Shown here in pieces: positions 2,224-45,958 of a stretch of 64,000 bases of DNA. Below the pieces are notes generated by a model. It saw only the letters and a program-made list of their open reading frames with translations. It made no database searches and was not told the DNA's origin. Numbering within the stretch: position 1 is the stretch's first letter; each line of letters opens with the position of its first letter. The position numbers and the translations under genes are program-made. Origin of the DNA: a virus (lineage: Duplodnaviria > Heunggongvirae > Uroviricota > Caudoviricetes); IMG/VR virus record IMGVR_UViG_3300037484_000317; one strand, 5' to 3'.

Positions 2224-2504
2224 GTGTCCGGAGTTCAAGAACACACGAGCTGAAGACCTGGCCCCCGTTCTTTGAGTCCGTTCTTGACGGCAGCAAGACG
2301 TTCGAAATCCGCAGGGATGATCGGGCGTACGCTGTGGGGGACACCTTGTGTCTAAAGGAGTGGGATCCCAACGGTAGCACTGGCTACGGCGGAAAGTACA
2401 CACTTCGGGAAGTCAAGTGCCTTGTGACCTACGTTATGCACGGGGGTCGCTTCGGCATTGAAGAGCATACCGTCGTCATGGGCATCAAGTTGATCGAACC
2501 ATGA
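2220..2504 (+). CDS. DUF3850 / ASCH-superfamily protein
   Basis: HELKTWPPFFESVLDGSKTFEIRRDDRAYAVGDTLCLKEW signature. Confidence 0.8.
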   Translation: MSVRSSRTHELKTWPPFFESVLDGSKTFEIRRDDRAYAVGDTLCLKEWDPNGSTGYGGKYTLREVKCLVTYVMHGGRFGIEEHTVVMGIKLIEP

Positions 2505-3424
2505 TCTTCGCGCAATTCCGAAGTGACCTGAAAAGCTGGCGATGGAATCGCACTGAGTTGGGTCGGGAGCACTTCCGTCTGTATCGGATGGAACGTGGAT
2601 TGCCAATCAAAGAGCGGTACTGGCCAACTTGGTGGCTCGCACTGTCGTTCGCGTACAACATGGTTCGTTGGGTGCTCTTGCGCGATATGCACGTTGACCC
2701 CAACGAGGACTTCAACTGCGGACATTGCAGCAAGCCTGTATTGCGTAGGTGGATGTATTGTTCTGACGCCTGTTGGGTCGCAGACGAAAGAGAGAACGCG
2801 CATGGGCGGCATGAGTCTAAGTGAGGCAGAGGAAAAGGCTAATGTCCTGTGGATCCAACTGGAAGCGTTGATCACCCACGGGAAGAGAGTCGCTGCCATA
2901 GACTTGGTTTACGACACGGTGGATGACCTTTTCCTTGCTGGGTCATTCGATGCAGTAGGGGTGATCTTACGAGTCTCCGCCCAGCATGTGTCGCAACCAG
3001 AACTCCCCTTGAGTTTGTTCCTAAGTATGATGACGATTGCTATTCATGCCCGAGGGGAGGATCCCATGCTGGACCAAGCCTTTCTGGAACTCGCAGCACA
3101 GATTAGAGCCCGTGGTTCATCGACTGGGGAGGATCTTGTGGAGGACTACCTTTGCCGACTGGAAAGGCGCGCGCCCGTCGTCTCTGTCGCCCAGGATGGC
3201 ACGCCGGACGTGTTGCAGCGGCCGACTCGCACGCCGTCAGCGGGGGCGTAGGCGTGAGTAAGCGCAGCAAAGCACGCGATCGGGCGATCGTCGACCGCCG
3301 CAATGTGCCTTGCATCATCCACGACACACACGAGCCCGAGTGTCGCGGATGCCGCGCAGCCACACTCCGCAACGCGAACCGCGCCACGCCTTCGCTCTCT
3401 CGTTCGCAACCCACATCGGAGTAG
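2501..3424 (+). other. Three hypothetical genes (2501-2824, 2811-3251, 3254-3424)
   Basis: Tiled ORFs. The first and third carry CxxC pairs. Confidence 0.55.
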
Positions 3425-31010: not shown

Positions 31011-33152
31011 ATGCAAAAGTGCCCAACGTGCAAACAGAGTTCTGTCGTGGTCGATCGCCTTACTGGTGAGAGGGAGTGCCACAACGACAGGTGCGAACTG
31101 AATGTTGCGGACTTGGACATCAAGGACGCTGAACAGACTGGCGCTGTGATTGGTCATGTAATCGGGATCGTCTTGCGCTGGGTGTTTCTTGTTGGTGCTG
31201 TTGCTCTGTGTCTGAAATACTGCCTGTGAGGAAGGGGTCTAAATCATGTCTGAGGATGCTTACTGTGATGTGTGCGGGAAGATGGGCTGGCGTCGCCGAC
31301 GTCATGTTTCGCCAGATGATTGGTTCTTCTCTGAAGTGAAGAACGCGGACAGTCCTGCCGACTCATTGATCGCGCTTGCGTGCTCTGTCACCTGTCGGGA
31401 TCGATTTTGGACTCCCGGCCCAGGCCAATACGATCCTGTTACGGGGGATATCATATGCTCTACGACAAGTTCCTGAGTGCAATCATCGACAAGGGCCTTG
31501 CGGCGGCGATTGTGGACTACGCAGACAGCCCCAACCGGCTCAAGGGGGCCACGGAGGGATTCACCGCTTGTCGCGGCCTACAGCCTCCACAGCTCCACGA
31601 ACTGCTGTCCAAGGCCCGAGAGCGGGCAAGCCACGCCCAGTTGTATAACGCACCCATTGACACCTACTGGGAACTTCGCTGCTTTGAGGCGGAAGTCGAG
31701 TGGGTCTGCAACTGCATCAGCGTGGCCCTGCTGACTTTGGGCCAGGAGCCCATCGTGCAGCCGACGGTTAGAGCTGCCTTGTTGGTCAACGAAATTGTCA
31801 CGTTGAACACCAACTGACGTGGACCAGCCTACCAAGTACGACTTGAATCTCGCAATCCTGATGCGAGACAGGGATCAAGCCCCGCCCGAGTTGCGTGAGG
31901 CCATCGACTACTTCGTGGTCAAGTTCCGATTTGGCTCCAAAAGGCACCAATTTCTTTGCATCGAGTGCGGGGATCGCACAAGGGACATGTACATGGTCCG
32001 AAACGAGATTTGGCGTCAGGCCGTGCCGGTTGGCGGCGGGTACCTGCATTTTGCCTGCATCGAGAAACGATTGGGGCGACCACTGCACCTTGATGATTTC
32101 CAAGACCTGCCGATCAACCGAGAGATTTGCTACGGGTGGGCGCTCAGGGAGCGTAACACCCAAGAGGAGACGATAAATGGCCCGACCACAGTACTACGGT
32201 AGCTTCGAAAGCTTGCAGTTCCCCAAGACCGGGGCAATGATCGTGACGAAGGCTCGCGTACTTCACAAGAGCATCACGGCCAAGATGAAGGAACGTGAGG
32301 GGCGCATCCGTGCCGCTGCGAAGGAGATGGGCCTCAAGGATGCGGGGGATGTGCTCATGAGCATGCAGTCTATCGCCAACGGTGAGTCTGCCTATGGCAA
32401 TGCACCGGCTGCAAATCTCAATCTGACGGTCGGACTTGCGGCGAACATGAAGAGTGAGATTGCGGAGATGGACAAGGAGCGTCAGGAGACTGAGCGGCTT
32501 CGACTCATCATCGACAATCTCCCGCCACGAGAGAAGTTCAAGCTCAAGTTTGAAGAGCTGAAGTACTTCGGCTGGTGAAAGGGGAGCTTTCAACATGCAA
32601 CATTTCACTACAGCAGAGACAATCGGGGTCACCGTCATCGTTCTTGCCGTCCTTTGCCTTATCGCCTGGATTGCGTGGTTGACCCGGAGAGACACCGGGA
32701 GCGACAAGCAGCCTCTTCCGAGTCCGATTGACTATGACAAGATCTTTGGGGGTACTGAGACGAAGAGACATGAGTGGGCGACTTCGAGCACCACTGTCAC
32801 GATAACGACCCCGTTGGGCACTAAGTCAATGACGGTCACAACCGGCGGGGACGGTATTCCGAAGGTCACTACGACGACGACACCAACGAAAGCGCCAACG
32901 GAAACAAAGCCTGTCCCACCCAAGGATAACTGAGAGGTTATGGCCCACGTAATCATGTCACCGCCGGACCTCATCCCACTTGCACAACTCACCCATGAGT
33001 GCGGGGCCCTCGTGGAGTTCGTGCAGAGTGACATCCAAACGGACCAGCGTGGGGAGTCCTATGTTGTATGTCCTTGGTGCAAGAAGCCACCGTGGATTGA
33101 TGTACGTGTCCTACGGTGGCAAAATCGTGTGCTGGGAACGAAAGTGCTGTGA
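31011..33152 (+). other. Seven hypothetical genes, including a TM/Thr-rich protein at 32595-32933
   Basis: Tiled ORFs. Confidence 0.55.
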
Positions 33153-33154
33153 CC

Positions 33155-34336
33155 ATGAAACACATACTCATTACCGCCGGGACTACTTATGGGCGGCTCG
33201 ACGATAATAAGCTCGTCGGCAATCGGATCCGGGGGATCTGGGCGACGAAGTTTGCCTGTTGGCTGCACAGTCGTGGCTACAGCGTGACGCTGCTCCTGCC
33301 GGATACCTTTGACAAGGCGTCCCTGGAGAGGACCATGCGGGAAATGCCCCTGGTTTCCAGACCGGCCAATGAGCAACTCCCGACGTTCGAGGTGCTCTAC
33401 CAGAACGGCTACGAGTCCTACGCGGAGCAGTGCTATGCGCTCGCGCCCAAGGTGGACGCTGCCGTGATGGCAAGCGCAGTGGTGAATTGGATTCCGAAGA
33501 ATCCCGTCAAGGGCAAGATGACGACTGAGGGATACGCAGAGGGTGATGTCATCGACATTCCCTTCTACCTCGCACCCCGTGTCATCGACCGGATGCGGAA
33601 GCTCAATCCCAAGCTCACGCTCATCGGCTGCAAGATGACTGCGGGCTCCACACGGGATGAGCTGATGCGGGCAGCGTACGGGACGCTGCTCAAGGCTCAC
33701 TGCAACGTGGTTGTGGCCAATGACCTCAGCAACCTCAAAGAGAAGATCCTTGTCTACCCTGATGGCCGACAGAGTGTCCAAGCGGATTTCGAGTGGATGT
33801 ACCACGAGTTGAAGGCTGTCATCGACGACGTCTTCTACCGCACAGAGAGCGACCCGGATCCTGGAGCCATCGACCCAGACAGGTTGGAGACGGCAAAGGC
33901 TCGATTCAATCGCATCTGCGATCGATACCGAGAGAACTTCGTGAAGCGTCCGGACAATGGCCCCGACCGTGTCTTCGGGTCCGTGGCTGTTCGCATCGAT
34001 GACCAGAACACGCTTGTCAGCCCTCGCGAAAAGGGGACTATGTTCACGGCAGATGACGCCGTCATCGTCACAAGTGTTGATCGACACAAGACGGCCCGCA
34101 TCATCCGGACAGTGGATGGGAAGAAGGCCACCCTCAATGCCCCATTGCTCTTGAAGGTGCTGGATTTTTTTGAGTGGGATACTGTCGTTCACCTGCATGA
34201 ACTCCACGCGAAATGGGCGACTCTCCCGTATGCACCACCGGGTTCCGTTCGGGACAATGATCGGGCTCTATCCGGAGAAGACAGCGGCTTCAACATCGAA
34301 GGCCATGGCTGCGTCTTTGCCCCAGCGAGGGTGTGA
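33155..34336 (+). CDS. CoaB (phosphopantothenate-cysteine ligase)-like domain fused to a class II aldolase-like domain
   Basis: ILITAGTT..LD....GN, DAAVMASAV, LIGCK and CNVVVANDL resemble the CoaB/DFP C-domain. C-terminal FGSVAVR...LVSPREKG...VVHLH resembles the aldolase II fold. Confidence 0.6.
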   Translation: MKHILITAGTTYGRLDDNKLVGNRIRGIWATKFACWLHSRGYSVTLLLPDTFDKASLERTMREMPLVSRPANEQLPTFEVLYQNGYESYAEQCYALAPKVDAAVMASAVVNWIPKNPVKGKMTTEGYAEGDVIDIPFYLAPRVIDRMRKLNPKLTLIGCKMTAGSTRDELMRAAYGTLLKAHCNVVVANDLSNLKEKILVYPDGRQSVQADFEWMYHELKAVIDDVFYRTESDPDPGAIDPDRLETAKARFNRICDRYRENFVKRPDNGPDRVFGSVAVRIDDQNTLVSPREKGTMFTADDAVIVTSVDRHKTARIIRTVDGKKATLNAPLLLKVLDFFEWDTVVHLHELHAKWATLPYAPPGSVRDNDRALSGEDSGFNIEGHGCVFAPARV

Positions 34337-35486: not shown

Positions 35487-37621
35487 ACGAAAGCAGTGGA
35501 ACGGTACGTGTTTTCTGCCGAGAGGACTTCGCTGGCTGTGATGGTGCAAGTGCCTGGATCATCACCTGGGACACTACGGACACAGCCCTCAATTTCAAAG
35601 TCGTCGAGACTATCGTTGATGGAATTGACGGTGGGTCGGAAATCAGTGAGTCCCGGGCAGAGGGATATCTGAAGTGGGATGGATGCCTGAACATTGACTT
35701 CGACGGCAGTCGATGTCTTCACTTCTGTGGCCCGGAAGAGAAGCCTTTACTGGGGCGGCTTGTAGAGGCGATCTACAAGCTCGGGCCCAAGATGAAGAGT
35801 TGGGATCATGGTGGGGGAAGTTATGTGGAGGGGCGTAAGACACGCATGACAACCCCCTGGAATGGTCTCTTCTCGGAATGCGGGTTACTCTCCGATTGTG
35901 AAGGTGAGGAACGAGCTGGGCTGGAGTTGGCATTCGAAGAGATGCGTAAAGCGATCGTTCAAGAGGAGCGTATCCGTATTCGGGAGATCGTAAACGAGGT
36001 ACTTGATCCACAACGAACTCCTCAGTACACGCTATTGCACATGGCGATTGTGTCCCAAATCCAACCAGGTACGTTTCCAGATCCGCCCTGTGTTGACGAG
36101 CTGCAAAACCCAGAACCCGGTATGAGGGTTCGGATCCGGTGTGACCCGAAGGACACCCGTGGATTTCTGATCGGCTCTTCAATGATAGCGAACAGAAGGT
36201 CCGAAGGTGTGGGGGTACTTTGGGGTTACGTTCCGGGACATGGTGGGGATGTCTGGTACGTCGTCCATGAGGGAACTCCAGTCACTTCAGTGGATGGGAA
36301 AGATGTGTGGGACAAAAACGGCATAGCGGCGTATACGACTAGGGAGCTGACTCGGGCATGACTGACGAATCAAGTCTCATTCGTCGGGCCCTACTCGGGC
36401 TTCTTGACGCGCAGGATTTCCTCGGATACCAACTGACACACGCAAATGGTGGCATGAGTGATGACCAACTCAATGGCATCGCAGATGAGCACTTCGCCAA
36501 GCGGGCACTGTGGACAGAAGAGGATATCGTGGCCGTTACACGTGAGCTTGCTGGGTTGATTCCAGATCGACTTGATGCCCTGTTGGTCTCTGTGATCACG
36601 GGGTGTGACATTGAGCTGGCATCGCGCGTGCTGGTTGCTGGGGCGGAAGCGGAAGTGAAAGAACGTGCACAAGTGAGGAACACCAAATGACCACCGGATA
36701 CACCGCAGCTTTTGAAGACTCGAAGACCTACAGCTTTGAACAGTTCGTTTGGGGCTGTGCACGGGCCTTCGACATGGGGTGTCGTGACAATGATGGGCTT
36801 TCACCCCTTCATCGGAAGCCAGTCATTGCGTACGACAGCGCTAGGCTCGCGCAGTGCAGAAGGGACCTGGCTGCCCTTACCAAGATATCTGACAAAGCTC
36901 TTCAGACAAAGATTGATGCCGAGTACAAGAGGGAACTTCGGCGTTGGGTTCAAGGCAACGAGAAGTCCAAGGATTTGGACTTGAGGTACGCAAAGATGCG
37001 GGAGCGGGTTCAGGCATGGAGTGCTACCAGCAAGGATCAGACGGTGGCTTCAAATCTTGAAGCACTGAAGAAGTTCATGCTGGGCCAGCTCGATACACAC
37101 AAAAGCTATCGGCCGTCCAAGCCTAAGAAGAGGACGATTGGTTCCTACCGCAAAGCGCACCTACGGTATCTTAGGGAAGACATCCGTCAAAGCGAAAAGA
37201 ACATCCAAGAATCCATCAATCGCACACAGGAAGTCAATCTCTTCTTCCAAGAGTTGAACACGAGCGTCCCACGACCAAAGGAAAGCAAGTGACACAAGCG
37301 ACCCCAGAAGTAGCAGCCCTAGAAGTAGCAGCTCCAATCCCTCCACCCAGGGATCCACTGACGTATCTCAGCCACACAGACAGGGCCGTGCTCTACGCAG
37401 TCCTCACGGCATGGGTCTATGAGGATGATGCACTCAGCTTCCTGAGTGAAAACCACAAGCTTGATGAGAAGGATCTTCGAACTGAGGTCTTTCGCATCGT
37501 CGAAGTTCTGACGAAGACGCACCTGGACATCCCAGGAGCCCGTCGTGGCGTGTCGCCCAGCAGTGCACGTCTAGAGCGTGACCATATGGGCCACGTTGAG
37601 GACAACCGGGAACGCCGCTGA
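35483..37621 (+). other. Four hypothetical genes (35483-36361, 36358-36690, 36687-37292, 37289-37621)
   Basis: Tiled ORFs with 4-nt overlaps. Confidence 0.6.
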
Positions 37622-37876
37622 GAGCCGAGCTACGCCCCTGAGCCTTTTCACTCGGTGCTCTATGCGTTGTGCCTCACTGCGGCCTGTGAAAGGGCCGTAG
37701 AGAGCAGCTAACACCCAGGGACGGTGTACGCGGGCGAAGCGGGCACCGCCTGGTCTCAATCCGTTGTGCTGCTGAATCCTGCGGGTAACGTCGTTGGTGC
37801 AGCCCACGTAGAACACAGGGACGCCGTTCGCGCGGGTGCCCCGAAGAACATAGACACACCAGGGAGAGTCAGTCAT
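37571..37876 (-). CDS. GIY-YIG endonuclease (SLX1/UPF0213-like)
   Basis: CVYVL...FYVGCTND..RRIQQHNG...GGARF...RPW...EAQRIE. Confidence 0.85.
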   Translation of the reverse strand: MTDSPWCVYVLRGTRANGVPVFYVGCTNDVTRRIQQHNGLRPGGARFARVHRPWVLAALYGPFTGRSEAQRIEHRVKRLRGVARLSAAFPVVLNVAHMVTL

Positions 37877-38192
37877 GGCCAAGTTTCGTAAGCGTCCTGT
37901 AGTAATCGAGGCGAGCCAATGGTTCGAAAACGGAGATCATCTCTTCGCCGACGCCAACGGTGGGTCTGTGGTCAAGGGTGAAGGCAAGGTAGTCAGATAC
38001 TACCGTCGACCAGACGACCCAGGTACCCGTGAGTGCCAACATTGCGCACGCAAGATGCACGATCACGGCTGGATCGACACCCTCGAAGGTGGTCACATCG
38101 TGTGCCCGGGAGATTGGATCATCACGGGAGTTTCTAACGAAATGTACCCCTGTAAGAATGACATCTTCGTGAAGACCTATGAGCCCGTGTGA
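37875..38192 (+). CDS. Conserved phage hypothetical protein (PGDW/PGDYG-type)
   Basis: KFRKRPVVIEASQW...TLEGGHIVCPGDWIITG...YPCKNDIFVKTYE; AGGGAG RBS. Confidence 0.7.
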   Translation: MAKFRKRPVVIEASQWFENGDHLFADANGGSVVKGEGKVVRYYRRPDDPGTRECQHCARKMHDHGWIDTLEGGHIVCPGDWIITGVSNEMYPCKNDIFVKTYEPV

Positions 38193-41191
38193 TTCTTTCC
38201 TGGGTCTACCTCTCTGGTTTTCCAAAATCGCTCGATGTAAGCAAGTCACTTGCAAAACGAGCTGGTGGTAATCTGCGTGCTCGTGAGGCGATCGAGTTTA
38301 TGCGCTCCGAACGTGAGCGGCTTGGATTGACACGCATAGAACTTGAGACACGCATTTTTGGTCGGAGTGATGGGAATGTGCGTAACTGGGAGGATGGTAT
38401 CTCGATCCCTAGGCCAGGCTTGTGGCCGAAGATCCGGGAGGCTCTTGATCTTTCCAGTACACCATTTGATGCAGATATGGAACGTGGTGACACCGTAGTT
38501 GGAGAAGTAGCCGGTTCTTATGGATACCAGAAGGACGGTTTTCGGTGGACAGAAAACCATGAGCTGCGAGAACCTATTACGGATCTAGCTCGACAGTGGA
38601 CCGGCTGGGGCACAGCACTTAAGCCAGCACACGAACCCATCCTATTGTTTCAAAAGCCGTATAGTGACCAGCTTCCCGCAGAAAGCCCACCGATGACCAG
38701 TAGCCTGCTCCCTGACGACAAGACCCGCTGGGTACTCCACAACGGCAACTGCCTCGATGTACTTCGGTCGATGCCTGACGAGTCTGTGGACAGCGTCATT
38801 ACTGATCCACCCTATGGATTGTCGGGTCACAGCGCGGCCGACGTGCAGGAAGCACTAAGGGCCTGGCTCGACGGAAAGCCCTACGAGTCTGGTTCCTTAC
38901 GCAAGGGCCAAGAGAACTGCGCGACAAACATCCTCGGGAACGCCGTCATCTCGGACACGGATGGTTCTAATTCCAGCGGCCAGCAAGAAAACATCTCGTT
39001 CTCTGTCCTCAATAAGTTGTCCTCCGCTGTGTGTGTGGACAGTGTCAATCTCAATCACGAGAGCACGATTGGGGAAATAAAGGTCCGCAACGAAAGCTCC
39101 GCCATCCCATTCGAAAACGTGCTGGTAGGAGACCGAAATCCCAATCTCCCTGAGACGGGCAACAGTCACCCGTTCAGTCTCAGGAAAAGGCAAGGTTTTA
39201 CCGGCTGCGTAGGCGTATGCACCTGCCACACTGAGTCGGGTCCGTCCCTCTATCGTGTAAACGTATGGCTCCGTCACGACCCGCTTAGTGAGTCCGAGAG
39301 AGCGTCCCGCGAAGTGGCACTCACGGGAACAGAAGTTCGAGCCGTGCTTACCCTTGATGTGGCTAAGAAAACGGCGCAGATCTCTTTGACAGAGATCACA
39401 CCGGACCATGATTGCGGTCTGGTTCTGGTCCCCCCTCATCTTGTAGGAGCACTCACGGGAGCAAGTGGTCTCTCGCCCGAAACCCAATCTAGTGGGGTGA
39501 GCCTGGTAGGTGCTGCCGCAAACGGAACAGGTACAAGAAACAAGGGGGACACGTCGAATGATCCCACCACACTCCTTGCTACAGGTGCGAATACGGGTCT
39601 TCACAGCGTTGAAGGGCCTACCGCAAACTTCACAGTCCTTTTGCATACCGAGTACCTTACCAGACTTAGAAGTCCCACACTTGGTAAAAAAGGCTTCATG
39701 GGTAAGGGATGGGATGCGTTCGTACCGGGCCCCGAGGTCTGGAAAGAGTGCTTCCGGGTCCTGAAACCGGGAGGGCACCTGCTGGCATTCGCGGGGACAC
39801 GCACTCAGGACTTGATGGGGATTGCCATCCGCCTCGCTGGGTTTGACTGCCGAGATGAGATCCGTGTGGAGGGCGTACTTGCCTGGGAATTCGGAAGCGG
39901 ATTTCCGAAATCCCGCAACATCAGCAAGACTTTGGACAAGCAGGCCGGGGTGCTAGAGCACGAGGGCAAGAACATGCGGGACGTGACGGGGACCATGATG
40001 ACCCTGAAGCCCAGCATCAAGCCCTCGGAGTACGTAGCACCGGAACCCATCACTGACGATGCCAAGCAATGGGAGGGGTGGGGCACAGCTCTCAAGCCAA
40101 GTCACGAGCCCATCCTGATGTTCCGCAAGCCGATGGCCACCACAGTCGCCGAGAATGTTCAGCGGTACGGCACCGGTGCGATCAACGTAGATGGTTGCCG
40201 AGTTGAGACCATAGGACCCAGACCTGCAAGAGAGCCCTCTGGGATCGCTAGGGACGGTGACGTTTATGAGGCTGGATTAACTGGGTCCCGTGCCATTGAG
40301 GACACCATTCAGGGAAGGTGGCCTAGCAACTTAGTCCTCGTTCACACCCCCTCGTGTGTTCAGACTGGCACGCAGACTGTAGACTCCCCGGTCATCAATC
40401 GCTTCAATGACGGGATGAAGCCATTTGGTGAGGGCGCAGGCCACGCATACACCTCCGTGGGTGGGGGCCAGGAAGAGATCCCTGTTTGGGAGTGTGTAGA
40501 TGGATGTCCAGTAAAGGCCCTAGATGGTCAGAGTGGGGTTCTGACAAGCGGATCAGTGCGTCCCGGCTATATGCGCAACAGTTCCACCCAACCGAGTCGG
40601 GGCGGGTTTGAGGGTGGATTTGGAGACGCACCACTTACCGGATTCGGAGACTCGGGCGGAGCTTCCCGTTTCTTCCCACAGTTCCAGTACACGCCTGAGG
40701 ATGCCCCTTTCAGGTACGTCCCGAAGACAGGTCGCACCGAGCGCAACGAGGGGCTAGAGGGCGGACCACGGCAGCAGGTAGACGACTCTCGTGACCCTGA
40801 CGCACCGGGCGCCAACAATCCGCGCAACCGTGGTGGACGCCAGGATGAGAATCACCACTCCACGGTCAAGCCCATCGAACTCATGCGGTGGCTCATCCGG
40901 CTCGTGACGCCGCCTGGTGGGATCGTCTTGGATCCATTCAATGGCAGTGGTAGCACGGGTTGCGCGGCTATTGTCGAGGGCATGTTGTATGTGGGCATAG
41001 ACCTGGACCCCGACTACATCGAAATCTCACGGGGTCGGATTGAGTGGCACGGAATCAAGATAAAGGGTGGTTTGAAGAGGAATCCGTGGGTGGCGCCAGT
41101 GCGCACCGTTCAGGAGTCAGCAGTGCGCCCCGCTCGGAGCGCGGCTGACTTCCTGTGCGGATACGAGGACGAGGACGAGGACGACGGGTGA
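38189..41191 (+). CDS. Beta-class N4/N6 DNA methyltransferase 1, with an N-terminal duplicated HTH-bearing segment and a ~260-codon in-frame insertion
   Basis: Motif IV DPPY; GFMGKGWD; FGSGFPKS; motif I LDPFNGSG. The core probably starts at ATG 38693. Confidence 0.88.
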   Translation: MILSWVYLSGFPKSLDVSKSLAKRAGGNLRAREAIEFMRSERERLGLTRIELETRIFGRSDGNVRNWEDGISIPRPGLWPKIREALDLSSTPFDADMERGDTVVGEVAGSYGYQKDGFRWTENHELREPITDLARQWTGWGTALKPAHEPILLFQKPYSDQLPAESPPMTSSLLPDDKTRWVLHNGNCLDVLRSMPDESVDSVITDPPYGLSGHSAADVQEALRAWLDGKPYESGSLRKGQENCATNILGNAVISDTDGSNSSGQQENISFSVLNKLSSAVCVDSVNLNHESTIGEIKVRNESSAIPFENVLVGDRNPNLPETGNSHPFSLRKRQGFTGCVGVCTCHTESGPSLYRVNVWLRHDPLSESERASREVALTGTEVRAVLTLDVAKKTAQISLTEITPDHDCGLVLVPPHLVGALTGASGLSPETQSSGVSLVGAAANGTGTRNKGDTSNDPTTLLATGANTGLHSVEGPTANFTVLLHTEYLTRLRSPTLGKKGFMGKGWDAFVPGPEVWKECFRVLKPGGHLLAFAGTRTQDLMGIAIRLAGFDCRDEIRVEGVLAWEFGSGFPKSRNISKTLDKQAGVLEHEGKNMRDVTGTMMTLKPSIKPSEYVAPEPITDDAKQWEGWGTALKPSHEPILMFRKPMATTVAENVQRYGTGAINVDGCRVETIGPRPAREPSGIARDGDVYEAGLTGSRAIEDTIQGRWPSNLVLVHTPSCVQTGTQTVDSPVINRFNDGMKPFGEGAGHAYTSVGGGQEEIPVWECVDGCPVKALDGQSGVLTSGSVRPGYMRNSSTQPSRGGFEGGFGDAPLTGFGDSGGASRFFPQFQYTPEDAPFRYVPKTGRTERNEGLEGGPRQQVDDSRDPDAPGANNPRNRGGRQDENHHSTVKPIELMRWLIRLVTPPGGIVLDPFNGSGSTGCAAIVEGMLYVGIDLDPDYIEISRGRIEWHGIKIKGGLKRNPWVAPVRTVQESAVRPARSAADFLCGYEDEDEDDG
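38897..39646 (-). CDS. Zn-finger plus DUF559/Vsr-like endonuclease encoded antisense inside MTase 1
   Basis: Several CxxC and CSxEC fingers, then YQHVF...ADLYFP..ALVIEID...DRERDVFLLAAGIRTIRV. TAAGGT lies 7 nt before the ATG. Confidence 0.8.
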   Translation of the reverse strand: MQKDCEVCGRPFNAVKTRIRTCSKECGGIIRRVPLVSCTCSVCGSTYQAHPTRLGFGRETTCSRECSYKMRGDQNQTAIMVRCDLCQRDLRRFLSHIKGKHGSNFCSRECHFAGRSLGLTKRVVTEPYVYTIEGRTRLSVAGAYAYAAGKTLPFPETERVTVARLREIGISVSYQHVFEWDGGAFVADLYFPNRALVIEIDTVHTHSGGQLIEDRERDVFLLAAGIRTIRVRDDGVPEDVCRAVLLALA

Positions 41192-41240
41192 TGTGCCACT
41201 TGCACCTATTCGTCTTCTGAGATGCGTAAGTGTCCGACCC

Positions 41241-42215
41241 ATGACCATCTCTCTTTTGTGGCGCACAGATGTGCATCTCTCGGATCACACGCCTCGGTCA
41301 CGCAAGGATGACTGGACAGCTACCGTTCTAGGCAAGCTCACTCAAGTCGGGGAGATAGCTCGTACACTGGGGGCCTCTGCGGTTTTGGACGGTGGGGACT
41401 TCTTCGACTTGAAGAGCCCCACACGCAACTCGCACGCACTCATCCAGCAGGTGCTGGCCGTTCATCGCAACTACCCCTGCCCAGTCTACGCAAATGTTGG
41501 CAACCATGATTGCGTGTATGGGGACTACTCGTTCCTGCCACAGCAGCCGTTGGGCGTGCTCTACGAGTCGGGTGCCTTCAGGCGTTGCTATGATGAGCAC
41601 GAGGCGGTCTTCTTCCAGAATGGTGGGATCACTGTCAGGGTAGTAGGCGTTCCCTACCACGGGACCAAGTACGACCTGGATAGATTCCGCCGCATCAAGA
41701 AGAGTGGCGAGACCTACCTTGTGGTGTTGGCTCACGTTTTGGCGTCGCCCTCGGGCGGAACACTCTTCGAGTCCGAGGACGTAATCAAGTATGCAGACCT
41801 TGACCAGTTCGAGGGGGATGCTTTTCTATTTGGACATTGGCATAAGGACCAGGGGATTACCCACACTCCCGGTGGCAAACTGATTGTGAACACCGGCTCG
41901 CTTACGAGAGGTTCCCTCTCACAGGATGATCTTGACAGGGTGCCCTCCGCTGTGCACCTCAAGTTCACGACAGCGGGTATCACGGCCGAGAAGATTGCCC
42001 TTAGGCATACCCCCGCCGGAGAAGTGTTCGATCTTGAAGCTCGGGATACTGCGAATCTCCGAGAGAACATGATCGAAGAGTTCGTTGGCAACATCAAGTC
42101 CATCCTCATGGCAAAGTCCGAGCGATCGGTCCGGGATGCGATTAGAGACTTGCCCAACGTTCCAGATAAGGTCAAGGAACAAGCTCTCCTCTACATCGAG
42201 AAAGCAGGGGGGTAG
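41241..42215 (+). CDS. Metallophosphoesterase, SbcD/Mre11-like exonuclease
   Basis: TDVH, GGDFFD, GNHD and GHWH motifs. Confidence 0.85.
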   Translation: MTISLLWRTDVHLSDHTPRSRKDDWTATVLGKLTQVGEIARTLGASAVLDGGDFFDLKSPTRNSHALIQQVLAVHRNYPCPVYANVGNHDCVYGDYSFLPQQPLGVLYESGAFRRCYDEHEAVFFQNGGITVRVVGVPYHGTKYDLDRFRRIKKSGETYLVVLAHVLASPSGGTLFESEDVIKYADLDQFEGDAFLFGHWHKDQGITHTPGGKLIVNTGSLTRGSLSQDDLDRVPSAVHLKFTTAGITAEKIALRHTPAGEVFDLEARDTANLRENMIEEFVGNIKSILMAKSERSVRDAIRDLPNVPDKVKEQALLYIEKAGG

Positions 42216-43234: not shown

Positions 43235-45958
43235 ATGACTGACTCTCCCTGGGTGTTGCATCACGGTGATTGCCTTGAACTGCTCAAGTCTATGGACGCA
43301 GAGTCCATAGACTCTATTGTCACTGACCCACCAGCTGGAATTCTGTTCATGTCAAAATCTTGGGACTCAGATAAGGGGAGTCGACAACAGTGGGTTGCCT
43401 GGATGGAATCCATAGCTGTTGAGTGCCTGAGGGTTTTGAAGCCCGGGGGCCATGCCCTTGTGTGGGCGCTGCCCAGAACCTCTCACTGGACGGGTTGGGC
43501 CTGGGAGAATGCAGGTTGGGAAGTTCGCGACAAGATCGTGGCCCTCTTTGGGTGCCTGAGTGAGGATACTGAAATACTCGTCAATGGTCGGTGGGAACCT
43601 TACCAAAAAGCTGTGGTAGGAAGTCTCGCCCTATGTTATGATGTTGAACATGACACTTTTGCGTGGCACGAAATCCAAGAAACGTATTGCTATCCCTACG
43701 ATGATACCGCTTTCCGAATTCAATCGGATCGTACAGATCAAATCGTCTCCAGAGCACATCGTTGCCTTGTTGAACGAGATGGAAAGTTCTCTTTCTCCTC
43801 TGCCGAAACGCTTGTGGGCGAAGAGAACGTACCCATTCTGGAAAACTTGCAAGGATTGCTTACAGCCCTTTGCTTGCCGCACGAAGGAGCAAGCGGTCCG
43901 CAACAAGATGTGCCGTGGGTGCAGTCTCAAGCAGATGTCGTTGGTGAAGAAGGGGAAGTTCCGTACACCTCCGTCCGTATGCCCAAAATGCAACAGGGAA
44001 TTCCGTTCCAAGAGTCATTTACCCGTAGCCAAAGCGAAGTTCTGCTCCAACACTTGCAAAGCACAATCCCAGATGCAAGACCCAATAGCTCTCGCAAGGA
44101 TGGCCAGGATAGCCAAGCTTGGGCGTGCGGGGTGGACGGAAGAGAGTCTGAAATCCTATCGCGAGAAGATGACAGGTCCACTCAATCCAGCCTGGAAGGG
44201 CGGGGTGACGTACTTCAGGAAGCACGGAAATTACAACGGAGTGAAGTACATTCGTTGTCCAATCGAGTTCCTTCCGATGGCTCGGAAGGATGGCTACGTG
44301 ATGGAACATCGGATCATAGTGGCGATGATAATCGGTCGTTGTCTTCTTCGGACGGAGACGGTGCATCACGAGGACCACGATCCCACGAACAATGCCCTGT
44401 TGAACCTGGCGTTGTTCAAGTCGAATCGGGATCACAAACTGTTCGAGCATCACGGTTCACCACTTCCGATTTGGCGAGGATCACTCCCTTCCACCTGACT
44501 GGGAAGGTGTGGTGTGTGAAGACCCCGACTGGCGCTTTCGTCGCTCGTCGCAACGGCAAGGTCTTTATCACAGGGAATTCGGGATTTCCGAAGTCACTTG
44601 ACGTGAGCAAGGCGATTGACAAGGCAGGCGGGTCATCTCCTGTAGAGCAGTCCAGGCTGTTACGTGAGCGACGGGAGGCGCGCGGGCTGGATCGCGCCGC
44701 TGTAGCTACAGCAGTGGGTTGCACAGAGGCTAGTGTTCGTGACTGGGAGGAGGGACGTGCCCGTGTGGTAGGGGCTGCAATAGAGTTCATTACTCCGTCC
44801 GAAGAGTACCGAACGAAACTAGCAGACTTTCTCGGGTACAGCACAGACGAGCGTCGCATCTCAGGCGTTTCCGCCGTTCGTACTTCTGACGGGACAGTGA
44901 TCGGCCTGGGTCATTCTGGTACCCTACGCGAGGGTCAAAACACAGACGCCGCGAAGCAGTGGTCCGGCTGGGGGACAGCGCTCAAGCCTGCTGGGGAAGA
45001 CTGGTGGGTATTCCGCAAGCCTCTAATCGGGACTGTCGCAGCGAATGTACTTGCGCACGGGACGGGTGGGATCAACATTGATGGGTGTCGGATCGGCACA
45101 ACGAAGAGGGTGCCTGGATCACTTTCACACACTGAGAATGCAGTGTTTGGCAAGGGTCTGGGGGGTCATTGTCAGACAGGTGAGGAAAGTGGTCACAATC
45201 CGAACGTGGGGCGTTGGCCCGCGAACGTGGTCCTCGAATGTACTTGCGACAACACGCTGCCGGGCCCCCCTGATATTGTTTCTGATCGTGTGGGAGAACC
45301 AACAGTAGCTGCCCGCTACACAGAATGTGGCGCAACAAACATCGCGGTAACTCCTGGTGAGCGGCGTAGCGGCGGGGGTGTGATCCATACGAATCCAGAG
45401 TGCCCAGCTGCAATGCTGGACGAACAGACTGGTATGATGAAAGACGGCGTTGCAGTTCAACGCAACGGTGGTGGTCAGCAAATTGGAGGCGTTGAGAAAC
45501 GTACTGGAAGCGGTAGCAAGGCCGGAGTACGAACTGACGTAGGATTTGGCGGATCTGGGGGAGCTTCCCGATTCTTCTACTGCGCCAAGGCCAGTCGATC
45601 TGAGCGCACGCACGGCGGGCAAGTAGTCAATCTGCACCCCACCGTCAAACCCATCTCTCTCATGAGGTGGTTAGTCCGCTTGATTACCCCTCCTGGAGGA
45701 ACCGTCCTCGATCCCTTTACGGGCTCTGGTTCCACGGGAGTTGCCGCCATCCTCGAAGGATTCCTCTTCGTCGGTTGCGAAAAGGAAGTGGAGTCTGTCG
45801 AGACTTCCAGGTCACGACTTGAAATGGCTACCCTAGTCGCAAGCGGGGGAGTCAAGAATCCTTGGGAAGACGACCCACGGGAAGTCACTCCCATTCCCAC
45901 GCTCCCATCTGGACCAATCTCAGTTGAATCCATGTTCGGATTCGGAGACGATGAATGA
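43235..45958 (+). CDS. Beta-class N4/N6 DNA methyltransferase 2, containing an intein and an XRE-type HTH insert
   Basis: DPPA motif IV variant; ILFMSKSWD; motif I LDPFTGSG. Splicing would restore FG/SGFPKS. Confidence 0.88.
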   Translation: MTDSPWVLHHGDCLELLKSMDAESIDSIVTDPPAGILFMSKSWDSDKGSRQQWVAWMESIAVECLRVLKPGGHALVWALPRTSHWTGWAWENAGWEVRDKIVALFGCLSEDTEILVNGRWEPYQKAVVGSLALCYDVEHDTFAWHEIQETYCYPYDDTAFRIQSDRTDQIVSRAHRCLVERDGKFSFSSAETLVGEENVPILENLQGLLTALCLPHEGASGPQQDVPWVQSQADVVGEEGEVPYTSVRMPKMQQGIPFQESFTRSQSEVLLQHLQSTIPDARPNSSRKDGQDSQAWACGVDGRESEILSREDDRSTQSSLEGRGDVLQEARKLQRSEVHSLSNRVPSDGSEGWLRDGTSDHSGDDNRSLSSSDGDGASRGPRSHEQCPVEPGVVQVESGSQTVRASRFTTSDLARITPFHLTGKVWCVKTPTGAFVARRNGKVFITGNSGFPKSLDVSKAIDKAGGSSPVEQSRLLRERREARGLDRAAVATAVGCTEASVRDWEEGRARVVGAAIEFITPSEEYRTKLADFLGYSTDERRISGVSAVRTSDGTVIGLGHSGTLREGQNTDAAKQWSGWGTALKPAGEDWWVFRKPLIGTVAANVLAHGTGGINIDGCRIGTTKRVPGSLSHTENAVFGKGLGGHCQTGEESGHNPNVGRWPANVVLECTCDNTLPGPPDIVSDRVGEPTVAARYTECGATNIAVTPGERRSGGGVIHTNPECPAAMLDEQTGMMKDGVAVQRNGGGQQIGGVEKRTGSGSKAGVRTDVGFGGSGGASRFFYCAKASRSERTHGGQVVNLHPTVKPISLMRWLVRLITPPGGTVLDPFTGSGSTGVAAILEGFLFVGCEKEVESVETSRSRLEMATLVASGGVKNPWEDDPREVTPIPTLPSGPISVESMFGFGDDE
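43553..44578 (+). mobile_element. Contiguous intein (342 aa) in MTase 2
   Basis: Block A CLSEDTEILVNGRW; block B QIVSRAHR; block F GKVWCVKTPTGAF; block G RRNGKVFITGN followed by Ser+1. Confidence 0.88.
43638..44498 (+). CDS. Zn-finger plus HNH homing endonuclease in the +1 frame inside the intein
   Basis: CxxC fingers; NPAWKGG; GYVMEHR...VHHEDHDPTNNALLNL...H. Likely start ATG 43701 or 43779. Confidence 0.85.
   Translation: MMLNMTLLRGTKSKKRIAIPTMIPLSEFNRIVQIKSSPEHIVALLNEMESSLSPLPKRLWAKRTYPFWKTCKDCLQPFACRTKEQAVRNKMCRGCSLKQMSLVKKGKFRTPPSVCPKCNREFRSKSHLPVAKAKFCSNTCKAQSQMQDPIALARMARIAKLGRAGWTEESLKSYREKMTGPLNPAWKGGVTYFRKHGNYNGVKYIRCPIEFLPMARKDGYVMEHRIIVAMIIGRCLLRTETVHHEDHDPTNNALLNLALFKSNRDHKLFEHHGSPLPIWRGSLPST

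What the first reader, a model, noticed from the sequence alone, without database searches (positions are those of the whole stretch)
38888..39673. Endonuclease gene hidden antisense inside a methyltransferase, with both strands open and no intein
Seen: between ...GKPYE and PTLGKKGFMGKGWD, MTase 1 carries about 260 extra codons with no stop and no protein-like motif. The opposite strand of the same DNA encodes a coherent 249-aa Zn-finger plus DUF559/Vsr-like nuclease with a TAAGGT element before its ATG. There is no intein block A/B/F/G and no terminal Asn. A random frame this long would normally contain several stops, so openness looks selected. Established: non-intein insertions with an out-of-frame HNH have been reported in actinophage methylases. 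I do not know of an antisense DUF559 version. Inference: a homing element that survives by being translated as a tolerated loop, or is removed by an unknown splicing route.
Basis: partly seen in the sequence, partly recalled or inferred. Interest (0 to 1): 0.82.

Follow-up and report, generated by a model that had tools for sequence, protein, structure and literature searches.

The report
Backwards homing-nuclease gene inside methylase gene
A selfish DNA-cutting enzyme gene lies backwards inside a giant-phage DNA methylase gene, and its codons never create a stop on the methylase strand, so the methylase is most likely translated straight through it with no intron or intein; this is an opposite-strand variant of a trick first published in 2025.

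Summary
Methylase 1 (38189..41191 +, PF01555) has 264 extra codons (792 nt) between KPY and GFMGKGWD. All close homologues lack them.

The opposite strand encodes a 249-aa zinc-finger plus Vsr/DUF559-type nuclease (38897..39646 -). It has real homologues. Its model best matches the homing endonuclease I-Bth0305I.

I found 27 related loci in 21 lineages with the same layout:
- The nuclease is codon-aligned antisense just upstream of the GFMGKxWD motif, and the methylase frame is open.
- Nested nucleases use TTA, CTA or TCA (antisense stops) in 0 of 639 Leu/Ser codons. Host methylases use them in 148 of 1170 (p about 4e-30).
- A copy whose methylase is truncated has five TCA codons.

Mobility is supported in related loci:
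- Invaded methylases are scattered on the methylase tree.
- In one group the insert is 99% identical inside methylases that differ by 19-31%.
- One filled and one empty allele are sisters.

No intein or intron signal was found.

The best reading is a homing element that needs no splicing and is translated as a loop. The closest published case is the ShiLan hidden-HNH insertion, which is same-strand. Antisense Vsr-like nucleases have been reported only inside inteins.

This scan has already noted the same phenomenon in at least 22 other genomes. Expression, splicing and activity remain untested.

The parts
38189..41191 (+). Methylase 1 ORF (1000 aa stop-to-start; the database aa from 38300). 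It is a beta-class N4/N6 DNA methyltransferase, PF01555.
38189..38683 (+). N-terminal 165-aa extension. It is a copy of the methylase middle segment (GFPKS ... GWGTALKPAHEPILLFQKP) and is also present in homologues P0003 and P0010. The catalytic methylase proper probably starts at the ATG at 38684.
38684..38884 (+). Upstream methylase part. It contains motif IV (DPPYGL) and a helix ending in ...AWLDGKPY.
38885..39691 (+). Insert as read in the methylase frame: 269 codons between KPY and GFMGK, against 5 in empty alleles (net +264 codons, 792 nt). It has no stop, no Pfam hit, and mostly pLDDT below 50. The ends cannot be fixed to the base, because the native 5-residue linker has diverged.
38897..39646 (-). 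Homing-type endonuclease gene, 249 aa. It has three CxxC...CxxxC zinc-finger units plus a C-terminal Vsr/DUF559-like PD-(D/E)xK domain. The family-invariant D188 and E199 are present. It contains no TTA, CTA or TCA codons.
39647..39691 (-). Leader of the nuclease gene, with a Shine-Dalgarno-like TAAGGT 7 nt before the ATG. At the position where relatives carry an extended -10 box (TGGTATAATGGGATT), the window has AAGTGTGGGACT, a poor -10.
39692..41191 (+). Downstream methylase part, from GFMGKGWD to the end. It contains the target-recognition region, motif X and motif I (DPFNGSGST).

Best explanation
This is a minimal homing-endonuclease element: a leader, a ribosome-binding site and a zinc-finger/Vsr-like nuclease ORF, about 0.8 kb in all. 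It sits in reverse orientation in a PF01555 methylase gene, a few codons upstream of the conserved GFMGKxWD motif.

The nuclease codons occupy exactly the same triplets as the methylase codons. Stops in the methylase frame can therefore arise only from TTA, CTA or TCA codons in the nuclease, and selection removes them at no amino-acid cost. The methylase mRNA is then translated straight through the element. The product carries a roughly 264-residue, probably unstructured loop between motif IV and the next conserved block, and needs no RNA or protein splicing.

The nuclease is made from the opposite strand. It presumably cuts empty methylase alleles during co-infection, and repair copies the element together with short flanking tracts.

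What is shown:
- the architecture;
- selection against stops;
- the nuclease fold;
- mobility in related loci.

What is inferred:
- cleavage of the empty site;
- retention of the loop in an active methylase;
- the source of antisense transcription in this particular phage.
For: Architecture:
- The insert is absent from all 12 closest homologues and from the empty allele L021.
- Sampling by nuclease similarity, independently of any methylase gene call, gave 27 nested loci in 21 lineages. All are codon-aligned, have the N and C methylase parts in one frame, and are open through the insert.
- About 30 further clusters (at 50% identity) of predicted proteins contain the sense-frame peptide. Sixteen of them have DPPx and MGKxWD 260-295 residues apart.

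Selection:
- Nested nucleases use TTA, CTA or TCA in 0 of 639 Leu/Ser codons. Host methylases use them in 148 of 1170, Fisher p 3.6e-30. For the 13 lineages below 62% GC the counts are 0 of 419 against 111 of 759, p 3e-23.
- Other A/T-ending Leu and Ser codons are used normally.
- Natural controls point the same way. The copy in L027, whose methylase C-part is gone, has 5 TCA codons. Non-nested relatives of moderate GC also carry such codons.
- DPPY and other methylase motifs are invariant in invaded alleles that are only 31-41% identical to each other.
- Substitutions in the methylase C-part are concentrated at third codon positions.

Nuclease identity:
- Homologues are 34-56% identical and have conserved Cys ladders and acidic residues.
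- The AF2 model has pLDDT 86. Its best PDB match is the I-Bth0305I homing endonuclease catalytic domain (3r3p, E 7e-4, TM 0.63), followed by PvuRts1I/AbaSI and Vsr.

Mobility:
- Insert-bearing methylases need 9 gains or losses on the methylase tree, of which at least 6 are forced by well-supported branches.
- In L005, L007 and L008 the insert differs at 8-9 of 798 nt, while the methylase C-part differs by 19-31%. Near-identity extends about 85 nt upstream and 45-60 nt downstream, like a co-conversion tract.
- P0025 (filled) and P0027 (empty) are syntenic sisters.

No splicing signal:
- There is no Hint or intein hit in the whole protein or in the sense-frame inserts.
- The nuclease ORF fills 750 of the 792 inserted nt, leaving no room for splicing domains.
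- No Rfam match was found in the window or in 8 related loci.
Against: - There is no direct evidence of transcription, translation, methylase activity or DNA cleavage for any member.
- For this window alone the open frame is only moderately unlikely, with an empirical p of about 0.04-0.08.
- The insertion lies in the loop just after the catalytic DPPY motif. From my own recollection of CcrM-type structures, this loop is near bound DNA, so a 264-residue loop might impair function.
- The window copy lacks the sigma-70-like -10 box seen in relatives, and no promoter-like site was found.
- The AF2 alignment was shallow (24 rows), so low confidence in the insert is weak evidence for disorder.
- No close relative of the window's own element was found. 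Recent mobility is therefore shown for relatives, not for this copy.
Confidence: 0.8

Rival explanations
1. The insert is an unrecognised self-splicing intron, or some other RNA-level excision, that carries an antisense homing-endonuclease ORF. The mature mRNA would lack it.
For: Phage homing endonucleases are often intron-borne. Group I introns can be too divergent for covariance models. The insertion is in a conserved motif region, as intron sites usually are.
Against: If the insert were spliced out, nothing would keep the host frame open. Yet 0 of 639 antisense-stop codons occur in 21 lineages, and the insert length stays a multiple of three although the nuclease varies from 195 to 305 aa. 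There is no Rfam hit at E<=1 in the window or E<=0.1 in 8 loci. The element is essentially one ORF plus a 45-nt leader, so there is no room for an intron core.
Confidence: 0.04
2. The insert is translated and then removed or cut after translation by a non-intein route. Examples are proteolytic clipping that leaves a two-chain methylase, or an unknown form of protein splicing.
For: This is compatible with the selected open frame. The insert has no confident fold and would be accessible to proteases. The site is close to the catalytic motif, where a permanent large loop might be harmful.
Against: There are no Hint or intein blocks. No conserved nucleophile or Asn is present at the junctions of the different lineages. 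There is no positive evidence for any cleavage.
Confidence: 0.1
3. The invaded methylase is dead. The frame stays open for another reason, such as avoiding polarity on downstream genes or an intrinsic codon bias of the nuclease. Alternatively the methylase works as two separately made pieces.
For: The window phage has a second methylase (43235..45958), so methylase 1 might be dispensable. The next gene overlaps the methylase stop codon, so translational coupling could matter. In mycobacteriophage Malithi a distant antisense relative sits in a methylase that is not in one frame.
Against: Both methylase halves keep invariant catalytic and AdoMet motifs in invaded alleles that are only 31-41% identical, and substitutions are biased to third positions. 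The nuclease uses other A/T-ending Leu and Ser codons normally, so the avoidance is specific. The copy with a truncated methylase has 5 TCA codons.
Confidence: 0.05
4. The nested nuclease is the restriction partner of the methylase, or a Vsr-type repair enzyme, in a compact nested module. It would not be a mobile element.
For: DUF559, Vsr and PvuRts1I-like folds occur in restriction and repair enzymes. Relatives also occur free-standing next to methylase genes (L013, L029, L037, L039).
Against: The distribution is disjunct and includes sister alleles with and without the insert. The insert is 99% identical in methylases that differ by 19-31%. The best structural match is a proven homing endonuclease. 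The zinc-finger DNA-binding module is shared with HNH nucleases, which is the modular shuffling typical of homing endonucleases.
Confidence: 0.03

Closest known systems
ShiLan domain: hidden out-of-frame HNH endonuclease in mycobacteriophage DNA methylases (Gosselin et al. 2023, PMC9957025; Arsenault, Gosselin and Gogarten 2025, PMC11855218)
   Same: Both are insertions in a phage DNA methylase that are absent from close homologues and stop-free in the host frame. Both lack detectable intein or intron features. The in-frame peptide has no known fold, and the real endonuclease is encoded in another reading frame. The distribution is disjunct, and the insert has diverged less than its host methylase. 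Splicing is untested in both.
   Different: In ShiLan the nuclease is an HNH on the same strand, in the +3 frame. Here it is a Vsr/DUF559-type PD-(D/E)xK nuclease on the opposite strand, in the codon-aligned frame, and in relatives it has its own promoter-like leader. That paper does not mention antisense arrangements or codon usage. The stop-avoidance rule (0 of 639) is measured here.
Inteins with antisense homing endonucleases: antisense LAGLIDADG (Gorbalenya 1998, as cited) and antisense Vsr-like nucleases in actinophage inteins (bioRxiv 10.1101/2025.01.02.630785)
   Same: A homing nuclease, in some cases Vsr-like, is encoded on the strand opposite an insertion that is translated in the host frame.
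   Different: Those insertions keep the intein splicing domains, which remove the insert from the protein. Here no Hint blocks exist, and the nuclease ORF fills 750 of 792 nt. The reported hosts were polymerase, capsid, terminase and thymidylate synthase, not methylases.
I-Bth0305I / EDxHD family of Vsr-like homing endonucleases (PDB 3R3P)
   Same: It is the best structural match of the nuclease domain (E 7e-4, TM 0.63, 23% identity). The conserved acidic residues lie in a Vsr-like PD-(D/E)xK core.
   Different: By the entry's description and my own knowledge, I-Bth0305I is encoded in a group I intron. The DNA-binding part here is a ladder of zinc fingers. Activity has not been tested.
Genes in pieces made by free-standing homing endonucleases (for example MobE in the Aeromonas phage Aeh1 nrdA gene; from my own knowledge, not checked here)
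   Same: A homing-endonuclease gene lies inside a coding gene without an intron or intein.
   Different: In those cases the host gene is split into two separately translated ORFs. Here one continuous ORF is preserved.

Membership tests
ShiLan-type hidden-endonuclease insertion in phage methylase | Insertion in a DNA methylase that close homologues lack | tested here: met
ShiLan-type hidden-endonuclease insertion in phage methylase | No stop codon when read in the methylase frame | tested here: met
   0 stops in 269 codons. All 27 nested relatives are open.
ShiLan-type hidden-endonuclease insertion in phage methylase | No detectable intein or intron | tested here: met
   Pfam at E<=10 finds nothing in the sense-frame insert. 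Rfam finds nothing.
ShiLan-type hidden-endonuclease insertion in phage methylase | HNH endonuclease in the +3 frame of the same strand | tested here: not met
   The nuclease is on the opposite strand and is of DUF559/Vsr type.
ShiLan-type hidden-endonuclease insertion in phage methylase | Disjunct distribution, with the insert less diverged than the host gene | tested here: met
   Met for the family. No close relative of the window's own copy was found.
Vsr-like / DUF559 (EDxHD-type) homing endonucleases | Vsr-like PD-(D/E)xK fold with conserved acidic residues | tested here: met
   AF2 pLDDT 86. Foldseek matches are 3r3p, 4oq2, 1cw0 and 1vsr. D188 and E199 are invariant.
Vsr-like / DUF559 (EDxHD-type) homing endonucleases | Pfam DUF559 (PF04480) above the gathering score | tested here: inconclusive
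   The window copy scores 17.2 bits against a cut-off of 20.6. Homologues in L004 (32.6), L022 (34.9) and the Malithi ORF (31.6) pass.
Vsr-like / DUF559 (EDxHD-type) homing endonucleases | Site-specific cleavage of the empty allele | not testable with these tools
   Needs a biochemical assay.
Intein | Hint splicing blocks, N-terminal Cys/Ser/Thr, C-terminal Asn and a +1 nucleophile | tested here: not met
   There are no Hint hits. The junction residues vary between lineages, with no conserved Asn or nucleophile. Only 42 nt lie outside the nuclease ORF.
Group I / II intron | Conserved catalytic RNA core | tested here: not met
   There are no Rfam matches. The selected open frame argues against splicing. 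Very divergent introns could still be missed.
Type II restriction-modification pair | Nuclease and methylase are co-inherited as a unit with matching specificity | tested here: not met
   Sister methylases exist with and without the nuclease, and the insert is much younger than its host gene. Specificity is not testable.

The most novel reading that the evidence does not exclude
The translated insert may not simply persist as ballast. It could be removed or bypassed by a mechanism that is neither an intein nor a known intron, such as non-Hint protein excision or clipping into a two-chain enzyme. Alternatively, the overprinted sense peptide may itself be under selection as a new methylase domain. 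In 8 of 10 lineages, synonymous codon choice in the nuclease makes the peptide richer in polar, disorder-promoting residues than expected (the residue category was chosen after seeing the data).
Probability: 0.12. Interest if true: 0.9.

Novelty: new variant of a known kind. Interest (0 to 1): 0.62.

Why it matters
Homing endonuclease genes are thought to survive inside essential or useful genes by hiding in self-splicing introns or inteins. The ShiLan report of 2025 suggested a third way, a stop-free insertion that is simply translated, but it left open whether splicing occurs.

This family gives quantitative evolutionary evidence for that third way. The host frame is kept open by selection on synonymous codons of a gene on the other strand, and the constraint appears to relax where the host gene is lost.

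The work also shows several practical points:
- The codon-aligned antisense phase is the cheapest way to overprint two long ORFs.
- Such elements are common in uncultured phage methylases.
- Gene callers report either the long methylase or the nuclease plus a truncated methylase, never both.
- A related unannotated antisense nuclease lies under a 'hypothetical protein' in cultured mycobacteriophages.

The family is also a natural test of how large a disordered loop a methylase can tolerate next to its catalytic motif.

Tried and rejected
- Rfam at permissive thresholds on the window (37000-41500) and on 8 related loci gave no matches.
- Pfam on three sense-frame inserts at E<=10 gave nothing.
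- The sigma-70 promoter and terminator scan of 38500-40100 found none.
- The direct and inverted repeat search at the insert ends found only internal repeats that reflect the zinc-finger units. There was no terminal duplication.
- tblastn of the nuclease against 50,697 phage records gave only a weak hit at 19% identity in Microcystis phage MaeS. No sequenced phage carries a close copy.
- A Kyte-Doolittle hydropathy test of the sense peptide against synonymous shuffles showed no consistent shift. Only a polar-residue class chosen after the fact was enriched.
- DNA of the empty sister allele P0027 and of P0005 could not be fetched. The exact base-level ends in the window therefore remain undefined.
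- I considered and rejected the idea that the open frame in the window is by itself decisive. One unrelated gene (33116..34336) has a junk 382-aa aligned antisense ORF.
Full report
**What is in the window.** The + strand ORF 38189..41191 (1000 aa) matches PF01555 (N4/N6 DNA methylase) only from residue 516 onward, apart from a weak hit at the DPPY motif. A search with the C-terminal half found thousands of homologues. In an alignment with the 12 best, all read ...AWLDGKPY-xPKGx-GFMGKxWD. The window instead has 269 residues between KPY and GFMGK. Against the DNA of an empty allele from a 143-kb contig (L021), the net gain is 264 codons, or 792 nt. The methylase frame has no stop across the insert, while the other two + frames have 8 and 14. 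The in-frame peptide hits no Pfam family even at E<=10.

On the - strand, 38897..39646 encodes a 249-aa protein. TAAGGT lies 7 nt before its ATG. The ORF continues upstream to a GTG at 39778 only because the antisense frame of the methylase happens to be open there.

**The antisense ORF is a real gene.** It has homologues of 212-260 aa at 34-56% identity. These share repeated CxxC...CxxxC zinc-finger units and invariant acidic residues, D188 and E199 in window numbering. Pfam DUF559 is below threshold in the window copy (17.2 against 20.6 bits) but above it in homologues. An AlphaFold2 model built on 18 sequences has mean pLDDT 86. Its best PDB match is the catalytic domain of the homing endonuclease I-Bth0305I (3r3p, E 7e-4, TM 0.63), followed by PvuRts1I/AbaSI and Vsr. 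The zinc-finger module also occurs fused to HNH domains in other proteins, as expected for modular homing endonucleases.

**Geometry of the overlap.** Both ORFs use the same triplets. A stop in the methylase frame can therefore come only from a TTA, CTA or TCA codon in the nuclease. The window nuclease has none among its 32 Leu/Ser codons. From window or host-gene codon usage the chance of that is 0.004-0.007. An empirical control weakens this figure. One of about 24 other long ORFs in the window (33116..34336) also has an open aligned antisense frame of 382 junk codons. The window alone is therefore worth a p of about 0.04-0.08.

**The family.** I looked up where nuclease homologues are encoded. 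I also scanned viral, genome and metagenome collections with the nuclease alignment. This sampling does not depend on how the methylase was called. It gave 27 loci in which the nuclease lies antisense between a DPPY-bearing methylase N-part and a GFMGKxWD-led C-part. In all of them the nuclease is codon-aligned. Wherever both flanks were detectable they share one frame, and the methylase frame is open through the insert.

After removing near-duplicates, 21 lineages remain, with nuclease GC from 0.49 to 0.70. Their nucleases use TTA, CTA or TCA in 0 of 639 Leu/Ser codons. The methylase parts downstream use them in 148 of 1170 (Fisher p 3.6e-30). For the 13 lineages below 62% GC the counts are 0 of 419 against 111 of 759 (p 3e-23). 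Other A/T-ending codons (CTT, TCT, TTG) are used at normal or higher rates, so the avoidance is specific.

Two natural controls fit this reading. In L027 only the methylase N-fragment remains beside the nuclease, and that nuclease has five TCA codons. Non-nested relatives of moderate GC carry 5-6 such codons.

A full-library search with the sense-frame peptide found about 30 more protein clusters that contain it at residues of about 45-75 to 250-290. Sixteen of them have recognisable DPPx and MGKxWD motifs 260-295 residues apart.

**Evidence that invaded methylases still function.** In an alignment of 9 insert-bearing and 15 empty methylases, DPPY and many other motif residues are invariant. 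Yet the invaded alleles are only 31-41% identical to the window protein. Between related invaded alleles, substitutions in the C-part are concentrated at third codon positions (for example 95, 72 and 170 by position).

**Evidence for mobility.**
- On a methylase tree of 84 sequences, built with the insert excluded, the 12 insert-bearing rows need 9 changes of state. At least 6 of these are forced by well-supported branches.
- P0025 (filled) and P0027 (empty) are sisters. They are 96% identical over the first 55 residues, and their neighbouring genes are in the same order. The difference is a clean in-frame block: GAEL-KTG-DFM in the empty allele against GAEL-[about 233 aa]-K-DFM in the filled one.
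- In L005, L007 and L008 the 798-nt insert differs at only 8-9 positions, while the methylase C-part differs by 19-31%. Near-identity extends about 85 nt upstream and 45-60 nt downstream of the insert and then decays, as expected for co-conversion during homing.
- Free-standing relatives lie beside or between intact methylase genes (L013, L029, L037, L039).

For the window's own copy no close relative was found, so its recent mobility is inferred from the family.

**What the element consists of.** The nuclease ORF fills 750 of the 792 inserted nt. In L022 its TAA stop is the reverse complement of the host's last shared Leu codon. Upstream of the ATG, relatives carry an extended -10-like box and a GGAGG-type ribosome-binding site. 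The box is TGGTATAATGGGATT in L002 and TGGTATAATGGA in L012, with variants in L001, L003 and L004. The reverse complement of this box explains the conserved NPI(I/V)P in the methylase-frame peptide. The window has AAGTGTGGGACT at that position, a poor -10, and the consensus scan found no promoter. How the nuclease strand is transcribed in this phage is therefore unknown.

**No splicing machinery.** There is no Hint or intein hit in the whole protein or in three sense-frame inserts. Junction residues are not conserved between lineages. No Rfam family matches in the window or in eight related loci. More important, splicing at the RNA level would remove the need for an open frame, and that frame is clearly selected.

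An AlphaFold2 model of the methylase with its insert has confident core segments (pLDDT 75-97) and an insert mostly below 50. The alignment had only 24 rows, so this is weak support for a disordered loop.

**Comparison with what is known.** The closest published case is the ShiLan domain in mycobacteriophage methylases. It is a stop-free, non-intein, non-intron insertion that hides an HNH gene in the +3 frame of the same strand, has a disjunct distribution, and has not been tested for splicing (PMC9957025, PMC11855218). That paper does not mention antisense arrangements, Vsr-type nucleases or codon usage. A 2025 preprint reports antisense LAGLIDADG and antisense Vsr-like nucleases, but inside complete inteins and in other host genes. 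I found no paper describing an antisense Vsr/DUF559 nuclease in a non-splicing methylase insertion. I therefore class this as a new variant of a known kind.

This scan has already noted the same kind of element in at least 22 other genomes. My tests here were made independently of those notes and agree with them.

**Limits.** Nothing here shows expression, methylation or cleavage. The insertion lies just after the catalytic DPPY motif. From my recollection of CcrM-type structures this is close to bound DNA, so tolerance of a 264-residue loop is plausible from the evolutionary data but unproven. The exact ends of the insert in the window cannot be set to the base, because the native five-residue linker has diverged.

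Noticed in passing
window 43235-45958 (+), inner ORF 43638-44498 (+): Methylase 2 (907 aa) carries an intein-like insert. It begins at ...ALFG|CLSEDTEILV and ends at ...KVFITGN|SGFPKS, the same site as in homologues P0008 and P0009. Its central in-frame part looks like filler. A same-strand out-of-frame ORF of 286 aa has zinc fingers and an HNH_3 hit (E 2e-4, below threshold).
   Followed up: partly
window 38189-38683 (+): The first 165 residues of the methylase 1 ORF are a copy of the methylase middle segment (GFPKS ... GWGTALKPAHEPILLFQKP) placed ahead of the true N-terminus. Homologues P0003 and P0010 have the same extension, and P0012 starts with a different internal methylase piece. This may be a remnant of tandem methylases or of within-gene recombination.
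   Followed up: partly
window 37571-37882 (-): A free-standing GIY-YIG nuclease gene (103 aa, PF01541 E 5e-9) lies on the opposite strand about 300 nt upstream of methylase 1. GIY-YIG genes also flank the methylases of P0005, P0025 and P0027.
   Followed up: no
L020 (Mycobacterium phage Malithi NC_026605) 2462-3259 (+ in locus); also Camster and Techage: An unannotated 265-aa zinc-finger plus DUF559 ORF (31.6 bits, above threshold) lies antisense under the annotated gp54 'hypothetical protein', which has no Pfam hit. It interrupts the methylase at another site, just before HPTVKPxxLMRWL. There the methylase is not in one frame: gp53 ends in a stop, gp54 is in another frame, and a stop separates it from the C-terminal piece.
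   Followed up: partly
L027 1100-1780 (+): This nuclease homologue (P0122) sits next to only an N-terminal methylase remnant. The C-part has been replaced by unrelated genes, and the nuclease has 5 TCA codons, so the antisense frame is closed.
   Followed up: yes
window 33059-34207 (-) versus 33116-34336 (+): A 382-aa ORF of junk-like sequence is open on the codon-aligned antisense strand of a normal-looking 406-aa gene. It is most likely a chance open frame and served as the empirical control.
   Followed up: partly
protein P0005 (736 aa): This close methylase homologue is empty at the site studied here. It has another roughly 170-residue low-complexity stretch between GFPKS and GTALKPAHEP that looks like a read-through insertion. 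Its DNA could not be fetched.
   Followed up: no
L037 2507-3280 (+): This nuclease relative lies antisense between two tandem methylase genes rather than inside one. It may be an intermediate between the free-standing and nested states.
   Followed up: partly
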